Of a stretch of 64,000 bases of DNA, positions 30,364 to 49,929 are shown in pieces (positions within the stretch are counted from its first letter, which is position 1; each line of letters begins with the position of its first letter). The notes under the pieces are model-generated. The model searched no databases. It saw only the letters and a list, made by a program, of their open reading frames with translations, and had not been told where the DNA came from. This DNA comes from an uncultured Actinomycetes bacterium (GTDB lineage Bacteria > Actinomycetota > Thermoleophilia > Solirubrobacterales > Solirubrobacteraceae), in the NCBI GenBank assembly GCA_963714935.1, contig CAVQQA010000005.1, forward strand, positions 28,289 to 92,288, read 5' to 3'. Made by a program: the position numbers and the translations under genes.

Positions 30364-30436
<73 letters not shown>

Positions 30437-30441
30437 CTTCG

Positions 30442-40826: not shown

Positions 40827-43247
40827 TCAGGCCGCGGGCAGTGGCTGGCTGAGCGTCAGCACCTCCGCGAAGAGGTCTCCGTGCTCCGCGATCCGCTCGC
40901 GGACCTGGCCCGCCGTGAACACCAGCTGCTCGGCGTCCCCTGAGGCGAGGCATGCCTCAACCTCCTCCCACGTCACGGGCGTCGAGACAGTCGGCCGGTC
41001 ACGACCGCGCAGCGAGTAGACGGCGACCGTCGTCTTGGCACGGTCGTTCTGCGCCCAGTCGATCAGCACCTTCCCCCTGCGCGCCGTCTTCGCCTGAGTG
41101 GACACGGCCAGCGCGGGCTCCTCGCGGGCGAGCAGGTCCGCAACGGCCCTGGCGAACGTCTTCGAGGCCTCGAACGTCGCATCGGGCCGGTTCAGCGGCA
41201 TGTACACCTGGAGACCCTTGGAGCCTGACGTCTTGGCGAGACTGTCGAGGCCGAGCCCATCGAGCATGCCGCGAAGCAGTCGCGCGACCTGACAGCACTC
41301 GACGATCGTCGCCGGCGCGCCGGGATCGAGGTCGAAGACCACGGCGGTGGGACGGTCCGCGGTCTTCGCGAGCGCGAGCGAGGGATGCAGTTCCAGCGCT
41401 GCCAGCTGCGCCAGCCAGACCAGCGTGGCGGGCTCGTCTGCGAGGACGAAGTCGATCGTCTCGCGGCCGAGCGTGACCGCCTGCGTCTTCGCCCAGCCCG
41501 GTCTGTGTGACGGTGCGCGCTTCTCGAAGAAGGCCTCACCCTCGACGCCGTCCGGGTAGCGCTTCAGGGTCAGGGCGCGGCCCGCGAGGTGCGGCAAGAG
41601 CGTCCATGCCACCGCCGCGTAGTAGTCGATCACCTGCCGCTTGCTGAAGCCCGCCTCCGGGAAGAGCACCTTCTCGAGGTTGGTGACCGCAACCCGGCGC
41701 CCGCCGATCAGCGCCGTCGCCGTTGCTCCCCTGCCGCGCACGTTCCGCTCTTCGACGAGCACCAGCCTGGTCGGCCCGTCGTCGCGCAGGCCGAGCCACA
41801 CGGGGTGGCGCAGCAGCCCGCCCTCGGGATGCTCGGTGAAGCGGACCTCGCCGACCAACTCCGGCGAGACCCAGTGGCTGCCGGACGGCGGGCCGCTGCC
41901 GCGGGCGGTGGCCGCGAACGGGGAGCGATCCGCCGCGAGCGGCTGCAGGCGCGCCGCGAGGTCGTCCAGTGCCCGCTCGGAGAAGCCGGTCCCGACCCGC
42001 CCGGCGTAGCGCAGGAGACCATCGGCGCCCGGTTCGCCGACGAGCAGTGCGCCGATCCCGCCCGAGCGTCCCCCCTCCCCCTCGACCCAGCCGCCGATGA
42101 AGAGATCCGCCGTGTGGCCCTGCTTGACCTTGACCCACGCGCTGCTGCGCCTGCCCGGTTCGTAGGGGGCGCTGCGCCGCTTGGCGACGATGCCCTCGAG
42201 TCCGAGGCTCGCGGCCGCGGTCAGGAGCGCCGCGCCTTCGTCGTGAGGTTCAGGCGTCTGCCAGTGATCGCCGTCGAGGTCCAGGGCGCTGAGCAGTTCG
42301 CGGCGATCGGAGTACGGGAGCCCCATCAGCGAGCGTCCATCGAGCCAGAGCAGGTCGAACACCACGTAGGTCACGGGCACCTCGCCCGCGAGCTTGCGAA
42401 CCCGGGCTGCGTTCTCGACGTGCATGCGGCGCTGAAGCGCCTGGAAGCTGGGGCGCCCCTGCGCGTCGAAGGCGACGATCTCCCCGTCGAGCACCGCCGA
42501 GTGCTCATGGAGAGCGCGGTTCATGCGTGCGAGCTCTGGATAGCGAGCGGTGATGTCGCCGCCCGATCTCGCAGACAACGTCATCCGCCCCGGCTCCGAA
42601 CGCGCTTGCGCGCGAATACCGTCCCACTTGACCTCGAACGCCCAGTCGTCGCCCTCGGGCACCTCTCCGGGCCGGGCCAGCATCGGCGCCACGAAGTCCG
42701 GCATCGGCTGCGCGTCAGGGTCGGCCGGCGCGCCCATGCGGTGGATCATCCAGTCCTTGCCCGCCGGCTCACCGGCGGGCGCGAGCGGGAACAGCGCGTA
42801 GCGCCCGCGCACTCGCTCTCCGTGCAGGTCGACCTCCACCTTGCGCGCTTCCCACTTGAGCGGCTCGTAGGTCCCCGAGTCGTGGATGCGCATCGTCCCC
42901 GCGCCGTACTCCCCCTCCGGAATCTCGCCCTCGAACGCGAGGTAGTCGATCGGGTGATCCTCGGTCCGCACCGCGATCCGGTTGTCGCCGGACGACCCGG
43001 GGATGTACCGCGGCAGCGCCCACGAGACGAGCACGCCGTCACGCTCCAGCCGCAGGTCCCAGTGCAGCCGGGTCGCGTCGTGCTCCTGGATCACGAACCG
43101 CGGGGCGTTGCCCGTCTCGCCGTCCGAGGCACCGCCGGCAGGCTCGGGCGTCGCACCGAAATCCCTCTTCGAGCGATATCCACGGAGCGGGTCGGCCACC
43201 CCGCCGTTATACCCGTCACGGGGCGACTCGGAGGCCCGTATCGACAC
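40827..43247 (-). CDS. ligD: multidomain NHEJ ligase LigD (3'-phosphoesterase - ATP-dependent ligase - polymerase/primase)
   Basis: Intact 806 aa. PE domain: PRFVIQEHDATRLHWDLRLE. Ligase: FEVKWDGIRAQA (KxDG). Polymerase: LTLKRYPDGVEGEAFFEKRAP. No ku gene is adjacent. Confidence 0.9.
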   Translation of the reverse strand: MSIRASESPRDGYNGGVADPLRGYRSKRDFGATPEPAGGASDGETGNAPRFVIQEHDATRLHWDLRLERDGVLVSWALPRYIPGSSGDNRIAVRTEDHPIDYLAFEGEIPEGEYGAGTMRIHDSGTYEPLKWEARKVEVDLHGERVRGRYALFPLAPAGEPAGKDWMIHRMGAPADPDAQPMPDFVAPMLARPGEVPEGDDWAFEVKWDGIRAQARSEPGRMTLSARSGGDITARYPELARMNRALHEHSAVLDGEIVAFDAQGRPSFQALQRRMHVENAARVRKLAGEVPVTYVVFDLLWLDGRSLMGLPYSDRRELLSALDLDGDHWQTPEPHDEGAALLTAAASLGLEGIVAKRRSAPYEPGRRSSAWVKVKQGHTADLFIGGWVEGEGGRSGGIGALLVGEPGADGLLRYAGRVGTGFSERALDDLAARLQPLAADRSPFAATARGSGPPSGSHWVSPELVGEVRFTEHPEGGLLRHPVWLGLRDDGPTRLVLVEERNVRGRGATATALIGGRRVAVTNLEKVLFPEAGFSKRQVIDYYAAVAWTLLPHLAGRALTLKRYPDGVEGEAFFEKRAPSHRPGWAKTQAVTLGRETIDFVLADEPATLVWLAQLAALELHPSLALAKTADRPTAVVFDLDPGAPATIVECCQVARLLRGMLDGLGLDSLAKTSGSKGLQVYMPLNRPDATFEASKTFARAVADLLAREEPALAVSTQAKTARRGKVLIDWAQNDRAKTTVAVYSLRGRDRPTVSTPVTWEEVEACLASGDAEQLVFTAGQVRERIAEHGDLFAEVLTLSQPLPAA

Positions 43248-43356: not shown

Positions 43357-43635
43357 TCAGCAGCCGCCGGCCACGGCGGGGAGGATGGTGACCTCCTGCC
43401 CCGGGGCGACCTCGGTCTCGAGCGCCTCGCCGAAGCGGATGTCCTCGCCTGCGACGTACACGTTCACGAACCGGCGCAGCCCACCGCTCTCGTCGGTGAG
43501 GCGGTCGCGCAGCTCGGCGTGCTGCTCGAAGAGAGCGTCGAGAACCGCTCCAACGGTGGCGCCGTCGACCTCGACCGCGCTGACGCCGCCGGCCGCCTCG
43601 CGCAACTGCGTCGGGAGCTTGACGGTGACGCTCAT
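43357..43635 (-). CDS. MoaD/ThiS-family ubiquitin-like sulfur-carrier protein (or a C-terminal carrier domain fused to the upstream ThrC-like enzyme), ending ..AVAGGC
   Basis: The ATG at 43635 gives 92 aa: MSVTVKLPTQLREAAGG..VNVYVAGEDIRFGEALETEVAPGQEVTILPAVAGGC*. This is a beta-grasp carrier pattern with C-terminal Gly-Gly plus one Cys. No stop codon separates it from the upstream ORF. Confidence 0.75.
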   Translation of the reverse strand: MSVTVKLPTQLREAAGGVSAVEVDGATVGAVLDALFEQHAELRDRLTDESGGLRRFVNVYVAGEDIRFGEALETEVAPGQEVTILPAVAGGC

Positions 43636-44899
43636 GCGCGAACGCCCTCGACTCTCGACGTCTGCCACGAACGAGTCGTATGAGGCATCGATCTCGAATG
43701 TGTCGAACGTGTCGCGGACGGCGTCGAGCGTCTTGAGGCCTTCGCCGGTGATCGTCAGGACGACACTCTCGTCAGGCCGGATCGCGCCCCGCGCCGCGAG
43801 CTTCGCAAGGCCTGCGGTGGTCACGCCGCCGGCGGTCTCCGTGAAGATCCCGGTCGTCTCGGCGAGCAGCCGGATGCCGTGGCGGATCTCCTCGTCGGTC
43901 ACCGACTCGATCGTCCCGCCGCTGGTCTTCGCCAGCTCCAGCGCGTAGGGGCCGTCCGCCGGGTTGCCGATCGCGAGCGACTTGGCGATCGTGTCGGGCT
44001 TGACCGGCCTGCAGACCTCCGCCCCGCTCTCCCACGCCTGCGCGACGGGCGAGCAGCCACTGGCCTGCGCTCCGTGCATGACCGGCACGTCACCGCTGAT
44101 GAGGCCGAGGTCCAGCCATTCGCTGAAGCCCTTGGCGATCTTCGTGTACAGCGACCCGGACGCGACCGGCGCGACGACGCGATCCGGTGTGCGCCATCCG
44201 AGCTGCTCGGCGATCTCGTAGGAGATCGTCTTCGAGCCCTCCGCGTAGTACGGCCGCAGGTTGACGTTCACGAACGCCCAGTCGCGCTCGCCGGAGAGCT
44301 CGGTGCACAGGCGGTTGACGTCGTCGTAGTTGCCGCGGACCTTCACGACGTTGGTGCCGTAGACGCCGGTCGCCAGGACCTTCTGCTCCTCCAGGTCGGC
44401 CGGGATGAAGACGTAGCTGTCCAGGCCGAGTGCCGCGGCGTGTGCGGCGACGGAGTTCGCGAGGTTGCCCGGTCGAGGCGCACGCGAGCACCTCGTAGCC
44501 GAGTTCCCTCGCGCGGGCAGCGGCGACGCTGACGACGCGGTCCTTGAACGAGTGTGTGGGATTGGCCGCGTCGTTCTTGACCCAGACCTCGCCGAGCCCG
44601 AGCCGCTCGGCGAGCCGGTCGGCGCGAATCATCGGGGTGCAGCCTGCGGGCAGGCCGCTGCGTGAAGACGCTCTCCCGGACGGCCCGGGCTGCCCGCCGA
44701 CGAGCGGCAGGAAGTCCGCGTAGCGCCAGATGTTCTGAGGTCCGCCCTGGATGCGGCGGCGGATCTCCGCACGGTCGGTGGTCAGCCCGGTGTGGTCGTA
44801 CGCGACCTCGAGCGGACCGAAGCAGCGGCTGCAGACGTAGCTCGCATCTAGTTCGTACTGCGCGCCGCACTCGCGGCAATTCAGGCTTGTAGCTCCCAT
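43636..44899 (-). CDS. threonine-synthase-family PLP enzyme with an N-terminal zinc ribbon (ThrC-like; possibly a MetM-type homocysteine synthase); one frame break near 44468
   Basis: MGATSLNCRECGAQYELDASYVCSRCFGPLEV, NPTHSFKDRVVSVA (PLP lysine), ACASTG(+1 nt)NLANSVAAHAAALG and GNPADGPYALE..ETAGGVTTAG. It is preceded by a SAM riboswitch. Confidence 0.85.
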
Positions 44900-44944
44900 G
44901 GAAACCTCGCTGTGACACGTGGCGGAGACCTCTGGAAGCTCCGT

Positions 44945-45031
44945 CCACATCTTTCAGGAATTGGCACCGTCCCCAATTACGGGGGGTTGCCGGGGTTTCG
45001 TCGGGCCAGTCCCTCCACCCCTCTGGATGTG
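44945..45031 (-). promoter_or_regulatory. SAM-I-family riboswitch aptamer lacking P4 (SAM-I or SAM-I/IV variant)
   Basis: The minus strand reads CACAUCCAGAGGGGUGGAGGGACUGGCCCGACGAAACCCCGGCAACCCCCCGUAAUUGGGGACGGUGCCAAUUCCUGAAAGAUGUG. This is near-identical to the SAM-I core (AGAG-GGUGGAGGGACUGGCCCGAUGAAACCCGGCAACC...GGUGCCAAUUCC..GAAAGAUG). P1 is CACAUC/GAUGUG. It ends 45 nt upstream of the ThrC-like ATG. Confidence 0.85.
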
Positions 45032-45118
45032 TCAGCTATGTGGGGCGGCAGCCTAGCACGCAGGTAGACTGGAACGCGAGGCGAAATCCGATGAACACCG
45101 ACGAGCCGCGAAGTCCCG

Positions 45119-46129
45119 ATGCCCAGCCTGCCGAAGCCCCGCCTGCGCAGAGCAGCCCGTTCTCGCGCTGCCGTTCTCACCCAGCCGCCTGAGGCTCCGA
45201 CCCCGCAGATCGAGTCCATCGACGCCGGCCCCGAGGGTCGGCCGCTGCGCTGGATCAACCTGGAGCGCTGGCGCCCGACCGAGCGCGCCTGGCTCGAGGA
45301 GCACTTCGACTTCCACGCCCTCGACTACGAGGATGTCGGCTCGCGCAACCAGCGGCCGAAGGTCGACGAATACGACGACTACCTGTTCATCGTGCTGCAG
45401 TTCCCGCGCTACGACAAGCAGCTCGGCCGGCTGAGCGCGATCGAGATCGACATCTTCCTGGGACCGGACTACGTGATCACGATCCCGGACCGGCCGCTTC
45501 AGTCGCTCGATTACCTCTTCGAGCGCTGCCGCGACAAGCAGGACCTCCGTGAGCAGCTCTTCGGCAAGGGCCCCGGATACCTGCTCTACCGGATCGTCGA
45601 CGACTCCGTCGACGCGGCGTTCCCGATGCTCCGCAAGATGGGCAACAAGCTCGAGCGTCTCGAGGACGACATCTTCGAGGGCCGATCGAACGAGGTCGTG
45701 CGCGACATCTTCGACGTCAAGCAGGAGATCATCAACTTCCGCAAGACCGTGCGGCCGATGCGCACGGCGCTCAGCGACCTGGAGCGCACCACGAAGCGGT
45801 ACATCCCAGAGGAGCTGGAGATGTACTTCGACGACATCAACGACGCGTCCGAGCGCATCTGGGACATGCTGGAGAACTTCAAGGAGGTCGTCGAGGCGCT
45901 CGAGGCGACCAACGAGTCGGTCATCTCACATCAGCTGAACGACGTGCTGCGCGTGCTGACGTCGATCAGCGTCGTCGTGCTTCCGCTGACGCTGATCGCG
46001 AGCATCTTCGGGATGAACGTCCACGTCCCCTGGCAGGACGAGACCGAGGGCTTCGTCGTGACGATCGGCGTCATGGTGGCGCTGCTGCTGGCGATGGTCT
46101 GGGCCTTCCGCCGCCGCGGGTTCCTCTGA
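45119..46129 (+). CDS. corA: magnesium/cobalt transporter CorA
   Basis: Intact 336 aa with a C-terminal two-TM region carrying the signature ASIFGMNV (GMN motif). Confidence 0.9.
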   Translation: MPSLPKPRLRRAARSRAAVLTQPPEAPTPQIESIDAGPEGRPLRWINLERWRPTERAWLEEHFDFHALDYEDVGSRNQRPKVDEYDDYLFIVLQFPRYDKQLGRLSAIEIDIFLGPDYVITIPDRPLQSLDYLFERCRDKQDLREQLFGKGPGYLLYRIVDDSVDAAFPMLRKMGNKLERLEDDIFEGRSNEVVRDIFDVKQEIINFRKTVRPMRTALSDLERTTKRYIPEELEMYFDDINDASERIWDMLENFKEVVEALEATNESVISHQLNDVLRVLTSISVVVLPLTLIASIFGMNVHVPWQDETEGFVVTIGVMVALLLAMVWAFRRRGFL

Positions 46130-46161: not shown

Positions 46162-47148
46162 TTGTGTCCATGTCCCTCCCCGCCGTGCCATCGACACTCG
46201 CCGTCGAGGACCTGGAGACGAAGGCGCGGTCGCCGCCGTCTGGCGCTGATCGTCAACCCGTACGCGACATCCGTGTCGCGCCACATGCGCACGCTCGTGC
46301 TGGCCGCTCTGCGCAGCCGCTATGAGATCGCCGTGATGGACACGTCGGGACCCGGGCACGCCACCCAGCTGGCGCGCGAGGCGGCGGAGGAGAACGTAGA
46401 CGCCGTGATCACGTTCGGCGGGGACGGCACGGTCAACGAGGCGGCGAACGGCCTGGCCGGCAGCGAAGTTCCCCTGTTCCCGTTGCCCGGCGGCTCCCAG
46501 AACGTCTACGCCAAGATGCTCGGCATCTCCGGCGACATCGTCGACGCCACACAGCACCTGCTCCGCATCGACGACAGCTGGCGCCCCCGCCGCGTCGACC
46601 TCGGCCGCGTTCAGGGGCGGCTCTTCACGTTCTCGGCGGGCGCGGGCCTGGATGCGAGCGTCGTCGAGCGGGTCGATGCCAACCCCGCACGCAAGGCTCG
46701 CTGGCGCGAGCGCTACTACGCCGTCAGCGCGGCGCGCGTCTTCCTGCGCCGCTACATCGTCCGGCCGCCGCGCATCCACATCGAGTCTCCGGACCATTCG
46801 GTGCGCGGGGTGACCGTGATCGTCCAGAACGGCGACCCCTACACCTACTTCGGTCAACGACCGATCCGCGTCTGCGAGGGGATCGGGCTCGACGACGGGA
46901 CGCTGTCCGCCGCCGTCCTCGAGCGCGCCTCGCCGGTCGACCTCCCGACGATGGGCGCGCGCCTGCTTGCAGATGGACTCGAGGCCACCGATCACCGCCA
47001 CGCGAGCTCCCTCCCGGGGCTCGCGGGTTTCGACGTGCGTGCCGTCGGGGAGCGCCCGTTCGCCGTCCAGGTCGACGGCGACTTCCTGGGGCGCTTCGAT
47101 CACGTGCGCTTCGAAGCCGTCCCCGAGGCGCTGACGGTCGTCAGCTGA
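46162..47148 (+). CDS. diacylglycerol/lipid kinase family protein (DAGK catalytic domain); N-terminus ambiguous
   Basis: RRLALIVNPYA..AVITFGGDGTVNEAANGL..PLPGGSQNVYA. The TTG-46162 reading gives an odd Cys/Pro-rich start. ATG 46170 (MSLPAVPSTLAVEDLETKA) would need a 1-nt correction near 46240. Confidence 0.8.
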   Translation: MCPCPSPPCHRHSPSRTWRRRRGRRRLALIVNPYATSVSRHMRTLVLAALRSRYEIAVMDTSGPGHATQLAREAAEENVDAVITFGGDGTVNEAANGLAGSEVPLFPLPGGSQNVYAKMLGISGDIVDATQHLLRIDDSWRPRRVDLGRVQGRLFTFSAGAGLDASVVERVDANPARKARWRERYYAVSAARVFLRRYIVRPPRIHIESPDHSVRGVTVIVQNGDPYTYFGQRPIRVCEGIGLDDGTLSAAVLERASPVDLPTMGARLLADGLEATDHRHASSLPGLAGFDVRAVGERPFAVQVDGDFLGRFDHVRFEAVPEALTVVS

Positions 47149-47186
47149 CCCACCGCACGCAGCGACCGCCGCGGCCCGCGGCGACG

Positions 47187-47412
47187 ACGCCGGCGAGAAC
47201 GTTCCGCCAAGCGAAACAAACACGCCGAGGCGCACACGCAGCGCTCACGCCGGCGAGAACGTTCCGCAAAGCGAAACAAACGCGCCGAGGCGCACACGCA
47301 GCGCCCACGCCGGCGAGAACGTCCCGCCAAGCGAAACAAACGCGCCGAGGCGCACACGCAGCGTTCACGCCGGCGAGAACGTCCCGCCAAGCGAAACAAA
47401 CGCGCCGAGGCG
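47187..47412. repeat. 60-bp tandem minisatellite, about 3.7 copies, in the convergent gap between the lipid kinase and relA
   Basis: The unit is acgccggcgagaacgt(t/c)ccgc(c/a)aagcgaaacaaac(a/g)cgccgaggcgcacacgcagcg(c/t)(t/c)c, repeated at 47187, 47247, 47307 and 47367 with 1-4 substitutions per copy. Each unit carries the palindromic cores GGCGAGAACGTTCCGCC and GCGCCGAGGCGC. Confidence 0.9.
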
Positions 47413-47565
47413 GGGGCGGGCGGCATCCTGTCCGGGGAGCTCCGCCCGACCGCCTGGAAGGCGGGAGCGGCGCCCCGGCGGGATGACCGCCCGCGCCCGC
47501 CCGACCACGAACGCCGCGATAGGCGCCCACCCGAGACCGCTGAGCGCTCGGCGCACCCGAGACCG

Positions 47566-49929
47566 CTAGGCGCTCGGCGTCACCCGGTAGGCGTCGAAGA
47601 CGCCCTCGATGTGCCGCAGTCGGCTCACCATCGCCTTCAGCGCCTGCGTGTCGGCCACCTCGACAACGAAGCGGTTGCCGACCATCGGCCGGTTCACCAG
47701 GCAGCGCGCTTCGACGATGTTGATGCCGTGCTCGGAGAAGGTCCGCGACAGGTCCTCGAGCAGGCGGTGACGGTCCCATGCGTCGACCTGCAATCTCGAC
47801 CTTGAACGAGGTCTCGTGGTCGCCCTCCCAGTGCACGGTCACGAAGCGCTCGGGGTCCTTGCGCAGCGCGGCGACGTTCGGGCAGTCGTCACGATGGATC
47901 GTGATCCCGCGACCGAGCGAGACGTAGCCGACGATCGGGTCGCCCGGAACCGGGTGACAGCACTTCGCGAGCCGCAGCATCACGTCGTCGACGCCGTCGA
48001 CCCGGATGCCGTACGTGGCCGACGAGCCGCCCGGCTGGCGCCGCCGACGACGGTCTGAGACCAGCGTGTCGGGCACGCCGCTCTCCTCTTCAGCGGCCTC
48101 GCCCTGCTTGAGGCGCTGCATCAGCTTGTTGACGACGACCTTCGGTGAGATCTTCGCTCCGCCGAGCGCGATGTAGAAGTCGTCGGCCTTGCGGAAGCCC
48201 ATCTCGCGGATCACGTCGGCCAGCAGCGGCGAGCCCGCGATCTTCTGCGCCGGCAGACCAGCCTTGCGCAGATGCTCCTGGAGCAGATCGCGCCCGGTGT
48301 GCTCGGCGTCCTGGCGACCTTCGGCCTTGAAGAACTGGCGGATCTTGTTGCGGGCGCGCGTCGTCTTGACGACCGCGAGCCAGTCACGCGACGGCCCGCG
48401 CTCGCGCTTGCTGGTCAGCACCTCGACGCGGTCGCCGGAGCGCAGCTGGTAGGTGAGCGGGACGATCCGTGCCGTTGACCTTCGCCCCGACACAGCGGTG
48501 GCCGAGCTCCGTGTGGATCTCGTAGGCGAAGTCGAGCGGGGTCGCGCCGGCGGCGAGTGACTTGACCTCGCCCTTGGGCGTGAAGACGAAGACCTCCTCG
48601 CTCGATCAGGTCGTCCTTGAGGTGGGCTCGACGAACTCCTTGGGGTCCGACAGCTCCTGCTGCCAGTCGAGCATCGAACGCAGCCAGTGCAGCTTCGCGT
48701 CGCCCTCCGGGACCTTGACGCGGCGACCCGACGGGTCGGTCTTGTACATCCAGTGCGCGGCGACGCCGTACTCGGCGATGCTCGTGCATCTCCCGGGTCC
48801 GGATCTGGATCTCCAGCGGCAGTCCCTCGGGTCCGATCACCGTCGTGTGCAGCGACTGGTACAGGTTGAACTTCGGCATCGCGACGAAGTCCTTGAAGCG
48901 CCCGGGCAGCGGCTTCCAGAGCGAGTGGATGACTCCCACGGCTCCGTAGCAGTCCTTGACGGAGTCGACGATGACCCGCATCGCGGTCAGGTCGTAGATC
49001 TCGTTGAACTCGCGGCCCTTGCGGGTCATCTTCGAGTAGATCGAGTAGAAGTGCTTGGCGCGGCCGGAGATCTCGCGCGTCGATGCCGACCGCGTCGAGC
49101 TCGCGGCTCAGCGTCTCCGCCGGCGTCGGTGACGTAGTGCTCGCGCTCGCTCGCGCTGCTGGTTGACCAGCCCCTTGATCTCCTGGTACTTGCGCGGATG
49201 CAGCGCGGCGAAGGCGAGATCCTCGAGCTCCCACTTGATCGCGTGGATGCCGAGCCGGTGCGCGATCGGCGCGTAGATCTCAAGCGTCTCCTTGGCCTTC
49301 TCGATCTGCTTCTGCTTGGCAGAGCGCCGAGATCGTGCGCATGTTGTGCAGGCGATCGGCGAGCTTGATCAGGATGACCCGGATGTCCGTGGCCATCGCG
49401 ACCATCATCTTGCGGTAGTTCTCGGCCTGCGCCTCGTCGCGCGAGGTGAAGGTGATCGCCGTCGAGCTTCGTGACGCCGTCGACGAGCGATGCGACCTCC
49501 TCGCCGAAGCGCTCGCTCGACCTCGGCCAGCTGCGCGCTCGTGTCCTCGACCGTGTCGTGCAGCAGCGCGGCGCAGAGCGTCTCGGTGTCGAGCCGCATT
49601 CCGGCGCAGATCTTCGCCACGCCGACCGGGTGGACGATGAACTCCTCGCCCGACTTGCGACGCTGGTCGGCGTGATGACCATAGGCGAACAGGAACGCCG
49701 CGGTCACGCGGTCGCGGTCCACCGGCAGCGCCGCTTCGTCGGCGTGCTCCTCGACGATCGCGAACAGGTCTGACAGCAGGCGCTCAGCGGTCGGCGTCAG
49801 CTCCCCGACGTGCGTCGGCGCCGCGCCGTTGGCGCGATCGACCGCGTCGACCGGGCTGCGGCTCGTGACCGCCGGCCGCGGCGACGACTCGGTCGTCAGG
49901 CCGCCAGCGCGATCGTGCGGGTCAGCCAT
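47566..49929 (-). CDS. relA: bifunctional (p)ppGpp synthetase/hydrolase RelA/SpoT homolog, many frame breaks
   Basis: ATG at 49929. HD domain: [31 protein letters not shown]. Synthetase: [39 protein letters not shown]: [12 protein letters not shown]-terminus: ORF 47566-47793. Confidence 0.9.

What the first reader, a model, noticed from the sequence alone, without database searches (positions are those of the whole stretch)
44945..45031. P4-less SAM-I-family riboswitch upstream of a ThrC-like gene
The minus-strand sequence reproduces the SAM-I binding core almost base for base: CCAGAG-GGGUGGAGGGACUGGCCCGACGAAACCCCGGCAACC-(P3 CCCC/GGGG)-ACGGUGCCAAUUCC-UGAAAGAUGUG. The P4 hairpin normally found between AAUUCC and GAAAGAU is absent, so the aptamer is about 87 nt. 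That is the hallmark of the SAM-I/IV variant class. A candidate extra hairpin (CGGAG..CUCCG, 44917-44937) follows P1. The regulated gene is annotated by homology as threonine synthase, which is not a classical SAM regulon member. The riboswitch is therefore direct sequence evidence that the downstream unit acts in Met/SAM metabolism.
Basis: partly seen in the sequence, partly recalled or inferred. Interest (0 to 1): 0.65.

Follow-up and report, generated by a model that had tools for sequence, protein, structure and literature searches.

The report
P4-less SAM-I riboswitch before metM
This is a genuine SAM-sensing riboswitch of the common SAM-I family that has lost one of its four stems; it controls a methionine-pathway enzyme mislabelled "threonine synthase", and both the stem-less variant and the gene association have already been described.

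Summary
Rfam SAM-I (RF00162) matches window 45033-44944 (minus strand) at 82 bits, E 8.5e-18, with the P4 hairpin cleanly deleted. The class assignment is wrong. The RNA keeps the SAM-I kink-turn and pseudoknot PK-1 and has no PK-2, so it is a P4-less SAM-I, not SAM-I/IV.

The "extra hairpin" is real but lies at 44943-44923, 6 nt from the stated position. It is the core of an anti-sequestor helix that overlaps the 3' strand of P1. Its 3' arm can instead pair with the Shine-Dalgarno/AUG region, which gives a translational OFF switch (inferred).

The downstream genes are a ThrC-like enzyme plus a CysO-like sulfur carrier. This is the MetM/MetO homocysteine route, published in 2024 with a SAM riboswitch upstream.

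Among 73 metagenomic metM homologues with enough upstream sequence, 66 have a P4-less SAM-I leader, 6 keep P4 and 1 has no SAM-I core. P4-less SAM-I aptamers in Actinomycetota are already noted in the literature. The window is therefore a new member of a known kind, from a Solirubrobacterales-like genome.

The window's metM frameshift and apparent MetM-MetO fusion are specific to this assembly and are probably indel errors.

The parts
45050..45058 (-). Extended -10-like promoter box TGCTAGGCT (TGn + TAGGCT). The likely transcription start is about 45041.
   Evidence: TGnTAnnnT is conserved at the same distance in all 10 Solirubrobacterales leaders. The generic sigma-70 scan found nothing, so this is inferred from conservation only.
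45033..45041 (-). Conserved 5' leader ACAUAGCUG immediately upstream of P1. Function unknown.
   Evidence: Present in 9 of 10 genome leaders and most metagenome leaders. Missing in L048/L176. No conserved pairing partner was found.
44944..45033 (-). SAM-I aptamer (RF00162) lacking P4
   Evidence: 82 bits, E 8.5e-18, full model with P4 deleted. 93% of cells are paired versus about 42% in slid controls across 21 P4-less aptamers.
45026..45031 (-). P1 5' strand CACAUC
   Evidence: Pairs with 44951-44946. Compensatory U-A/A-U at alignment pair 4-99, plus changes at pairs 2-101 and 5-98.
44992..45021 (-). P2a/P2b with kink-turn (GGGGU-GGA-GGG-ACUGG-CCC-GACGAA-ACCCC)
   Evidence: Rfam alignment. GGAGGGA and GAA are invariant in alignment A1. 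P2a pair 17-38 covaries U-A/C-G.
45006..45009 (-). PK-1 5' strand CUGG (P2 loop)
   Evidence: Pairs with CCUG 44958-44955. The middle pair 26-90 varies U-A (4) / G-C (2).
44963..44991 (-). P3 (GGCA-A-CCCCCC / GGGG-AC-GGUGCC) with loop GUAAU
   Evidence: Rfam alignment. The proximal P3 is 100% paired in A1.
44952..44958 (-). PK-1 3' strand CCUG followed directly by J4/1 AAA. This is the site where P4 would be.
   Evidence: 17 model positions are deleted here. In orthologous leaders this spacer is 2-4 nt in 66 loci and holds a CAGGC...GCCUG P4 hairpin in 6.
44946..44951 (-). P1 3' strand GAUGUG
44939..44950 (-). Anti-sequestor 5' arm AUGUGG(A)CGGAG. It overlaps 5 nt of the P1 3' strand.
   Evidence: Forms in the unconstrained MFE. 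The hairpin loses 9.6 kcal/mol when the P1 3' strand is blocked. Duplex energy is -17.3 versus -9.7 for shuffles, p=0.005.
44917..44927 (-). Switch segment CUCCGCCACGU. It is both the anti-sequestor 3' arm and the anti-SD.
   Evidence: The same nucleotides are used in both competing duplexes in 23 of 23 group-A leaders.
44893..44910 (-). Sequestered region: GCGAGG (SD GAGG 44908-44905), UUUCC, start codon AUG 44899-44897, and GGGA
   Evidence: With P1 forced, the SD and the UG of the AUG are paired. In the window this duplex is weak (-12.6 versus -11.4 shuffled, p=0.29). In relatives it is -18 to -28.
43632..44899 (-). metM-like gene (ThrC-family PLP enzyme with N-terminal CxxC...CxxC). Reading frame is broken by +1 at GGGC 44470-44467.
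   Evidence: Pfam PALP, TIGR00260, PDB threonine synthases. 74-89% aa identity to intact 413-478 aa orthologues. Frameshift.
43357..43635 (-). metO-like sulfur-carrier gene (ThiS/MoaD fold, ends ...AVAGGC). In this assembly it is in frame with metM because of an extra G at 43649.
   Evidence: Pfam ThiS, SAMP1/MoaD. CysO 3dwg_C 9e-21 and 4n6e_B 4e-21. Homologues are stand-alone proteins of 90-93 aa. Translation.

Best explanation
The element is a SAM-I (S-box, RF00162) riboswitch that has lost the P4 hairpin. It sits in the 5' leader of a metM-metO operon in a Solirubrobacterales-like actinobacterium.

The aptamer keeps P1, P2 with its kink-turn, P3 and pseudoknot PK-1, together with the conserved core sequence blocks of SAM-I (AUC...GAU, GGCAACC, GGUGCC), so SAM is the expected ligand.

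Proposed mechanism (inferred, not demonstrated):
- When SAM is low, the 3' strand of P1 plus the next 6 nt (AUGUGG-A-CGGAG) pairs with CUCCGCCACGU. This ties up the anti-SD segment and leaves the Shine-Dalgarno GAGG and the AUG accessible.
- When SAM is bound, P1 holds GAUGUG and that helix loses about 10 kcal/mol. The CUCCGC segment and its upstream flank then pair with GCGAGG...AUGGGA, and initiation of metM translation is blocked.

MetM (a ThrC homologue) and MetO (a CysO-like thiocarboxylate carrier) would make homocysteine from O-phosphohomoserine. The switch would therefore be ordinary end-product feedback on methionine synthesis.
For: Identity:
- RF00162 at 82 bits, E 8.5e-18, with other clan models scoring lower.
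- Covariation in P1, P2a, P2b and PK-1 across 21 P4-less aptamers: 93% paired versus about 42% in slid controls, with 0 of 500 shuffles reaching the observed score.

Same architecture upstream of the same gene:
- 9 genome loci.
- 66 of 73 metagenome loci are P4-less and 6 of 73 keep P4.
- All 19 leaders with a SAM-I core among 20 loci scanned are RF00162 at 64-96 bits.

Platform:
- No intrinsic terminator in the window.
- The MFE contains the anti-sequestor helix.
- That helix loses 6-10 kcal/mol in 8 of 8 leaders when the P1 3' strand is blocked.
- In 23 group-A leaders, the anti-sequestor duplex is -16.2 versus -10.5 for shuffles and the sequestor is -18.2 versus -12.2. The shared segment overlaps in 23 of 23, and at least 3 nt of the P1 3' strand are used in 23 of 23.

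Gene function:
- PALP + ThiS domains, a CysO-like carrier, and a stand-alone carrier in all relatives.
- Published MetM/MetO pathway with an upstream SAM riboswitch in Streptomyces albulus (Hasebe et al. 2024, as cited in PMC12172450, and in the GapMind preprint).

P4-less aptamers can respond to SAM: PMC12714719.
Against: - No ligand-binding or expression data exist for this RNA.
- In the window itself the SD-sequestering duplex is imperfect and no better than shuffled controls (p=0.29). At equilibrium, the relatives' sequestor forms with or without P1, so the switch would have to act kinetically during transcription.
- metM is frame-broken in this assembly.
- The assignment to MetM rests on context and a paper I could not read directly. 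NCBIfam has no MetM model, and the protein passes the generic thrC equivalog.
- The promoter and transcription start are inferred from conservation only.
Confidence: 0.8

Rival explanations
1. It is a member of the SAM-I/IV variant class (RF01725), with the CGGAG/CUCCG hairpin acting as the external P4 of that class.
For: P4 is missing from the junction and a hairpin follows P1. Two other SAM-clan models also hit the region at E<=10.
Against: RF00162 outscores them. The kink-turn and PK-1, which SAM-I/IV lacks, are present and PK-1 covaries. P3 loop/tail complementarity is at chance level in all 23 P4-less loci, and close relatives cap P3 with GCAA or GAAA tetraloops. The hairpin overlaps the P1 3' strand and competes with P1.
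Confidence: 0.03
2. The switch works mainly by premature transcription termination (intrinsic or Rho-dependent) rather than by blocking translation initiation.
For: In relatives the sequestor is a GC-rich 6-8 bp stem followed by 5-7 U residues (for example CCUCCGCC...GGCGGAGGUUUUU in L126, L129 and L005). That resembles an intrinsic terminator placed just before the AUG.
Against: The window has no terminator-like site. Its stem is imperfect and is followed by only UUU. The helix directly includes the SD and the AUG. Direct translational control is reported as most frequent for riboswitches in Actinobacteria (PMC2258182).
Confidence: 0.12
3. The locus is decaying. metM is a pseudogene in this organism and the riboswitch is a relic with a weakened expression platform.
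For: There is a +1 frameshift at 44470-44467 and loss of the metM stop through an extra G at 43649. The window and L055 share a shortened SD arm (GCGAGG rather than GGCGGAGG) and have a weak sequestor.
Against: The aptamer is identical in the window and L055 and all core positions are intact. The two assemblies break metM at different single bases. L055 also breaks ligD, and the window also breaks a relA-like gene. None of 80 metagenome contigs and none of 7 other genomes has a broken metM. This pattern fits consensus indel errors.
Confidence: 0.08

Closest known systems
SAM-I / S-box riboswitch (Rfam RF00162), P4-less or short-P4 subgroup of Actinomycetota
   Same: Same core: P1, P2 with kink-turn, P3, PK-1, and the GGCAACC / GGUGCC / AUC...GAU blocks. 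It scores 82 bits against the family model. PMC12714719 reports that the first principal component of the RF00162 alignment is P4 deletion, that 'a group of Actinomycetota have very short or no P4 helix', and that SAM aptamers can function without P4.
   Different: Nothing essential differs. Compared with the textbook four-way junction, P4 is absent and J4/1 is 3 nt. In the orthologous metM leaders J4/1 varies from 2 to 4 nt, and 6 of 73 still carry P4.
SAM-I/IV variant (RF01725) and SAM-IV (RF00634)
   Same: Same clan and a SAM-I-like binding core. There is no P4 inside the multi-helix junction, and a hairpin follows P1.
   Different: Those classes replace P4 with PK-2 (P3 loop pairing with the 3' tail). 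SAM-I/IV also lacks the kink-turn and PK-1. The window has the kink-turn and PK-1 and no PK-2. Its post-P1 hairpin competes with P1 rather than supporting the aptamer.
MetM/MetO homocysteine pathway of Streptomyces albulus (Hasebe et al. 2024, Appl Environ Microbiol 90:e01247-24)
   Same: A ThrC-homologous enzyme often misannotated as threonine synthase, an adjacent ThiS/MoaD-type sulfur carrier, and a SAM riboswitch upstream of metM.
   Different: The lineage differs (Thermoleophilia/Solirubrobacterales-like). I could not determine the riboswitch class in Streptomyces. No direct sequence comparison with S. albulus MetM was possible: the paper is not held and three homology searches timed out.
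CysM/CysO/Mec cysteine pathway of Mycobacterium tuberculosis
   Same: The carrier protein is closest to CysO (3dwg_C, 9e-21). In the window's sub-clade it carries one extra residue after Gly-Gly, which would need trimming, as Mec does.
   Different: The partner enzyme here is ThrC-like rather than CysM-like, and the context is methionine rather than cysteine.

Membership tests
SAM-I riboswitch (RF00162) | Covariance-model score at or above the curated gathering score | tested here: met
   82.0 bits versus 44.4, E 8.5e-18, model positions 1-108
SAM-I riboswitch (RF00162) | P1 helix closing the junction, supported by covariation | tested here: met
   CACAUC/GAUGUG. Pair 4-99 is U-A in 13 sequences and A-U in 8. 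Pairs 2-101 and 5-98 also vary compensatorily.
SAM-I riboswitch (RF00162) | P2 split by a kink-turn (P2a/P2b) | tested here: met
   GGA bulge and GACGAA strand match the model consensus. These positions are invariant or near-invariant in A1. Met at the sequence level only.
SAM-I riboswitch (RF00162) | Pseudoknot PK-1 between the P2 loop and J3/4 | tested here: met
   CUGG 45009-45006 with CCUG 44958-44955. The variable middle pair is U-A in 4, G-C in 2 and non-standard in 15 sequences.
SAM-I riboswitch (RF00162) | P4 hairpin completing a four-way junction | tested here: not met
   17 model positions are deleted. This does not exclude membership, because curated RF00162 members without P4 are documented.
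SAM-I riboswitch (RF00162) | Selective binding of SAM | not testable with these tools
   The nucleotides that I recall as ligand-contacting in the T. tengcongensis structure (in AUC/GAU of P1, GGCAACC and GGUGCC) are conserved. The identity of the contacts is from memory, not tested.
SAM-I/IV variant (RF01725) | PK-2: P3 loop pairs with the tail 3' of an external hairpin | tested here: not met
   Best P3 loop/tail helix in the window is 6 bp, lies inside the coding region, and is matched by 14% of shuffles. Results are at chance level in all 23 loci.
SAM-I/IV variant (RF01725) | Undivided P2 (no kink-turn) and no PK-1 | tested here: not met
   The window has both. The definition is taken from PMC6890682.
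SAM-I/IV variant (RF01725) | Best-scoring model within the SAM clan | tested here: not met
   Two clan hits were suppressed because they scored lower than RF00162. Their exact scores were not shown.
SAM-IV (RF00634) | P5 hairpin plus PK-2 replacing P4 | tested here: not met
   No PK-2. The post-P1 hairpin overlaps P1.
MetM/MetO thiocarboxylate-dependent homocysteine synthesis | ThrC-homologous PLP enzyme | tested here: met
   PALP 7e-74, TIGR00260 267 bits, threonine synthase structures 1e-54
MetM/MetO thiocarboxylate-dependent homocysteine synthesis | Adjacent ThiS/MoaD-type sulfur carrier with C-terminal Gly-Gly | tested here: met
   metO 43635-43357, CysO-like. Relatives have separate, translationally coupled genes.
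MetM/MetO thiocarboxylate-dependent homocysteine synthesis | SAM-responsive leader upstream of metM | tested here: met
   Window. 72 of 73 metagenomic homologues have a SAM-I core upstream.
MetM/MetO thiocarboxylate-dependent homocysteine synthesis | Sequence orthology to characterised S. albulus MetM, and homocysteine synthase activity | not tested
Homology searches timed out and the paper is not held.

The most novel reading that the evidence does not exclude
The metM leaders of this actinobacterial lineage may form a natural series of intermediates between SAM-I and the PK-2-bearing classes.

The window would be the minimal form: P1, P2, P3 and PK-1, with nothing replacing P4.

Its group-B relatives may have recruited the loop of the expression-platform hairpin (GUGAC) to pair with the P3 loop (GUCAC). 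That would act as a PK-2-like brace coupling aptamer folding directly to the OFF structure.

Variants keep the complementarity: UCCC/GGGA and AACC/GGUU. Cognate loops pair at -8 to -10 kcal/mol against about -3 for non-cognate loops.
Probability: 0.12. Interest if true: 0.55.

Novelty: new member of a known kind. Interest (0 to 1): 0.25.

Why it matters
For annotation: the "threonine synthase" here should be labelled as a MetM-like homocysteine synthase with its MetO carrier. The riboswitch should be labelled SAM-I, not SAM-I/IV.

For RNA biology: the orthologous set gathered here has 66 P4-less and 6 P4-containing leaders upstream of the same gene. It is a ready-made natural comparison for asking what P4 contributes to SAM affinity and switching. 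The phenomenon itself is already recorded in the literature.

Nothing here changes current understanding of SAM riboswitches.

Tried and rejected
- **SAM-I/IV or SAM-IV membership.** Rejected on kink-turn, PK-1, absence of PK-2 and clan score.
- **Intrinsic terminator in the window.** None found.
- **Thermodynamic ON/OFF discrimination.** With P1 free, the relatives still fold the sequestor at equilibrium, so only a kinetic model fits.
- **First duplex test.** It used segment boundaries that cut the window's switch element and gave meaningless numbers for the window. I redid it with tighter boundaries.
- **First pattern for P4-less junctions** (…CC N1-6 AAAGA). It also caught many ordinary P4-containing aptamers in Bacteroidota, Bacillota and Chloroflexota. 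Only 22 of the 120 loci were truly P4-less. The same strict regex undercounted P4-less metM leaders because J4/1 varies.
- **Real MetM-MetO fusion protein.** Rejected as unlikely. It depends on one extra G at 43649, 0 of 78 relatives are fused, and carrier homologues are stand-alone.
- **Conserved 5' leader ACAUAGCUG as a P4 substitute or P1 extension.** No conserved partner found.
- **UGACAC/GUGUCA complementarity** between the P1 5' strand and the platform loop. It is present only in the window, L055, L121, L123 and L005, so it was not pursued.
- **Full-length and N-terminal MetM homology searches.** They failed three times.
- **Papers not held.** Hasebe 2024, Trausch 2014 and Weinberg 2008.

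Full report
**1. Observation**

A scan of the whole window against Rfam 15 gives one riboswitch hit: RF00162 (SAM-I) at 82.0 bits against a gathering score of 44.4, E 8.5e-18. It covers model positions 1-108, with the 17 positions of P4 aligned to gaps. A permissive rescan of 44700-45300 gives the same hit and reports that two lower-scoring hits to families of the same clan were suppressed. The feature is therefore real, far beyond chance, and at the stated place.

Read against the model, the parts are:

| Part | Sequence | Coordinates |
|---|---|---|
| P1 | CACAUC / GAUGUG | 45031-45026 / 44951-44946 |
| P2a-kink-turn-P2b | | 45021-44992 |
| P3 | | 44991-44963 |
| PK-1 | CUGG / CCUG | 45009-45006 / 44958-44955 |
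| J4/1 | AAA | 44954-44952 |

The 3' strand of PK-1 runs directly into J4/1 and P1, so P4 is cleanly excised.

**2. Is the P4-less fold real?**

Most matches turned out to have an ordinary P4 beginning with AAAGA. In 22 loci the bases after AAAG pair with the 5' strand of P1 at the right distance.
- Nine are Solirubrobacterales-type Actinomycetota. One of these, L055, has an aptamer identical to the window's and 93% nucleotide identity over 7.3 kb.
- Thirteen are Clostridia/Bacillota.

On an alignment of the 21 distinct sequences (A1), the structure P1 + P2a + P2b + proximal P3 + PK-1 is paired in 93.3% of cells, against 40-44% when partners are slid. None of 500 shuffles reaches the observed covariation score. 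Compensatory changes occur in P1 (pair 4-99: U-A in 13, A-U in 8; also 2-101), P2a (17-38: U-A/C-G), P2b and PK-1 (26-90: U-A/G-C). P1 therefore closes directly after J4/1 in two distant phyla.

**3. Which class?**

As summarised in the SAM-IV cryo-EM paper (PMC6890682):
- SAM-IV replaces P4 with PK-2 plus P5.
- SAM-I/IV has an undivided P2, lacks PK-1, and has an external P4 with PK-2.

The window keeps the kink-turn sequence and PK-1. A test for PK-2 (best helix between the P3 loop and the 70 nt after P1, against shuffles) is at chance level in all 23 P4-less loci. L005 closes P3 with a GCAA tetraloop and L121 with GAAA.

**4. Is the variant new?**

No. A 2025 study of the RF00162 alignment (PMC12714719) reports three things:
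- The first principal component is deletion of P4.
[quoted passage not shown] 2014), although affinity falls as P4 shortens (citing Heppell et al. 2011).

That study also obtained SAM-responsive designed aptamers without P4.

**5. The regulated genes**

The ORF starts at ATG 44899-44897, five bases after GAGG (44908-44905). Once a frame break is bridged, it encodes a PALP-fold enzyme with an N-terminal CxxC...CxxC segment (Pfam). It passes NCBIfam's generic thrC equivalog, and there is no MetM-specific model. Its closest solved relatives are threonine synthases.

The last 92 codons (43635-43357) encode a ThiS/MoaD protein. Its closest solved relatives are M. tuberculosis CysO and an Amycolatopsis ThiS/MoaD protein.

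This pair matches the MetM/MetO thiocarboxylate route from O-phosphohomoserine to homocysteine described in Streptomyces albulus by Hasebe et al. 2024. [quoted passage not shown] I could not read the primary paper or compare sequences with S. albulus MetM (timed out), so orthology is inferred from context.

**6. Breadth of the association**

A metagenome scan with an alignment of MetM proteins (A2) returned 80 loci at 75-89% identity. Of the 73 with at least 150 nt upstream:

| Upstream element | Loci |
|---|---|
| P4-less SAM-I core, with J4/1 of 2-4 nt (AGA, ACA, GU, GA, UCA, AAA and others) | 66 |
| SAM-I core with a P4 hairpin CAGGC...GCCUG, in an otherwise similar leader | 6 |
| No SAM-I core | 1 |

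Rfam on 20 representatives gives RF00162 for all 19 with a core: 91-96 bits with P4 and 64-83 without. None is SAM-IV or SAM-I/IV. In Clostridia, the P4-less aptamers precede metK or a metH-like gene. The window is thus a typical member of a large, coherent set.

**7. Mechanism**

The steps below are inferred; nothing here was measured.

*Promoter.* All ten Solirubrobacterales leaders share a TGnTAnnnT box (window 45058-45050), followed 7-8 nt later by ACAUAGCUG. The generic promoter scan finds nothing, and no intrinsic terminator is found.

*Anti-sequestor.* The unconstrained fold forms AUGUGG(A)CGGAG (44950-44939) with CUCCGCCACGU (44927-44917) instead of P1. On nascent-length transcripts this hairpin loses 9.6 kcal/mol in the window, and 6-7 kcal/mol in seven relatives, when the six bases of the P1 3' strand are blocked.

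*Sequestor.* With P1 forced, the window's leader pairs the SD and the UG of the start codon.

*Per-sequence duplex test.* On 23 distinct group-A leaders:

| Duplex | Observed | Shuffled | p <= 0.05 |
|---|---|---|---|
| Anti-sequestor | -16.2 kcal/mol | -10.5 | 17 of 23 |
| Sequestor | -18.2 kcal/mol | -12.2 | 14 of 23 |

The anti-sequestor uses at least 3 nt of the P1 3' strand in all 23 leaders. Both duplexes use the same middle segment in all 23.

*Caveats.*
- In the window the anti-sequestor is strong (-17.3 versus -9.7, p=0.005), but the sequestor is imperfect and not better than shuffles (-12.6 versus -11.4, p=0.29).
- In relatives the sequestor is so stable that it forms at equilibrium with or without P1, so control would have to be kinetic.
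- In several relatives the sequestor is followed by a U-run and could also terminate transcription.

Direct translational control is reported as most frequent for riboswitches in Actinobacteria (PMC2258182).

**8. State of the locus in this assembly**

metM changes frame at GGGC 44470-44467, between ACASTG and NLANS. An extra G at 43649 removes the metM stop, which in L055 overlaps the metO start as ATGA.

- L055 breaks metM at a different base (equivalent to 44510) and also breaks ligD.
- In the window, a relA-like ORF keeps only its middle domain in frame.
- Seven other genomes and all 80 metagenome contigs have intact, separate genes. MetM is 413-478 aa and is never fused. Carrier homologues are stand-alone proteins of 90-93 aa.

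I read the frame breaks and the "fusion" as consensus indel errors. Recent lesions cannot be excluded without the reads.

**9. Verdict**

The P4-less SAM-I form in Actinomycetota and a SAM riboswitch upstream of metM are each already described. This is a new member of a known kind, of modest interest.

The most novel thread is a possible pairing between the P3 loop and the platform-hairpin loop. It concerns group-B relatives, not the window.

Noticed in passing
window 44467-44470 (minus strand, within metM): +1 frameshift at GGGC splits the MetM-like ORF between ...ACASTG and NLANSVAAH.... The closest relative, L055, is intact here but has its own +1 at the position equivalent to 44510. None of 80 metagenome contigs and none of 7 other genomes is frame-broken.
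   Followed up: yes
window 43649 (minus strand, 14 nt upstream of the metO ATG at 43635): One extra G puts metM in frame with metO, giving an apparent 513-aa MetM-ThiS fusion. L055 has an ATGA stop/start overlap instead. 0 of 78 relatives are fused, and all carrier homologues are stand-alone proteins of 90-93 aa.
   Followed up: yes
window 43357-43362 (MetO C-terminus ...AVAGGC*); proteins P0001-P0012: In the window's closest clade the sulfur carrier has one variable residue after the Gly-Gly (C, S, A or L). More distant relatives end at GG. The extra residue would need removal, by a Mec/JAMM-type peptidase, before thiocarboxylation.
   Followed up: partly
Group-B metM leaders, e.g. L014:6708-6802 and downstream; L125, L138, L141, L148, L162: The P3 loop (..GUCAC..) is complementary to the loop (..GUGAC..) of the platform hairpin CUUCGCC...GGCGAAG, about 27-30 nt after P1. 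Variants keep complementarity: UCCC/GGGA, AACC/GGUU, GUCACGG/CCGUGAC. Cognate duplexes are -8 to -10 kcal/mol versus about -3 for non-cognate. The pairing is absent in L158, L183 and L190, and absent in the window. It could be a PK-2-like loop-loop contact.
   Followed up: partly
L122, L124, L132, L185, L186, L193 (upstream of metM): Six orthologous metM leaders retain a P4 hairpin (CAGGC...GCCUG), while 66 have lost it. This is a natural series for studying loss of P4 within one riboswitch lineage.
   Followed up: partly
L016, L037, L056, L059, L064, L078, L082, L085, L086, L097, L103 (metK); L034, L079 (metH-like): Truly P4-less SAM-I aptamers also occur in Clostridia/Bacillota, upstream of SAM synthetase and a homocysteine methyltransferase-like gene. 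Loss of P4 is therefore not confined to Actinomycetota.
   Followed up: partly
window 45033-45041 and 45050-45058 (minus strand): A conserved leader, ACAUAGCUG, lies just 5' of P1, with a conserved TGnTAnnnT box 7-8 nt upstream. The box looks like an extended -10. The leader sequence has no identified partner or role and is missing in L048/L176.
   Followed up: partly
window 47187-47412: A 60-nt tandem repeat, 3.8 copies, 95% identical, lies between the convergent DAGK/YegS-like gene and the relA-like gene. The region 47232-47459 has no counterpart in L055, so copy number varies between close relatives.
   Followed up: partly
window 47141-49234 (minus strand): The relA/spoT-like ORF has only the AH/RIS middle domain in frame. 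The N- and C-terminal stretches read as out-of-frame sequence, which suggests further single-base indels in this assembly.
   Followed up: partly
window 40827-43247 (minus), 45119-46129 (plus), 30364-30437 (plus): The neighbours are an intact three-domain LigD (phosphoesterase, ligase, primase-polymerase) downstream of metO, a divergent CorA magnesium transporter upstream of the riboswitch, and a tRNA-Arg(CCG).
   Followed up: yes
window 45027-45032 versus 44913-44918 (minus strand): The P1 5' strand and its flank (UGACAC) are complementary to GUGUCA in the loop of the platform. This is seen only in the window, L055, L121, L123 and L005. It could be an extra anti-P1 pairing or chance.
   Followed up: no
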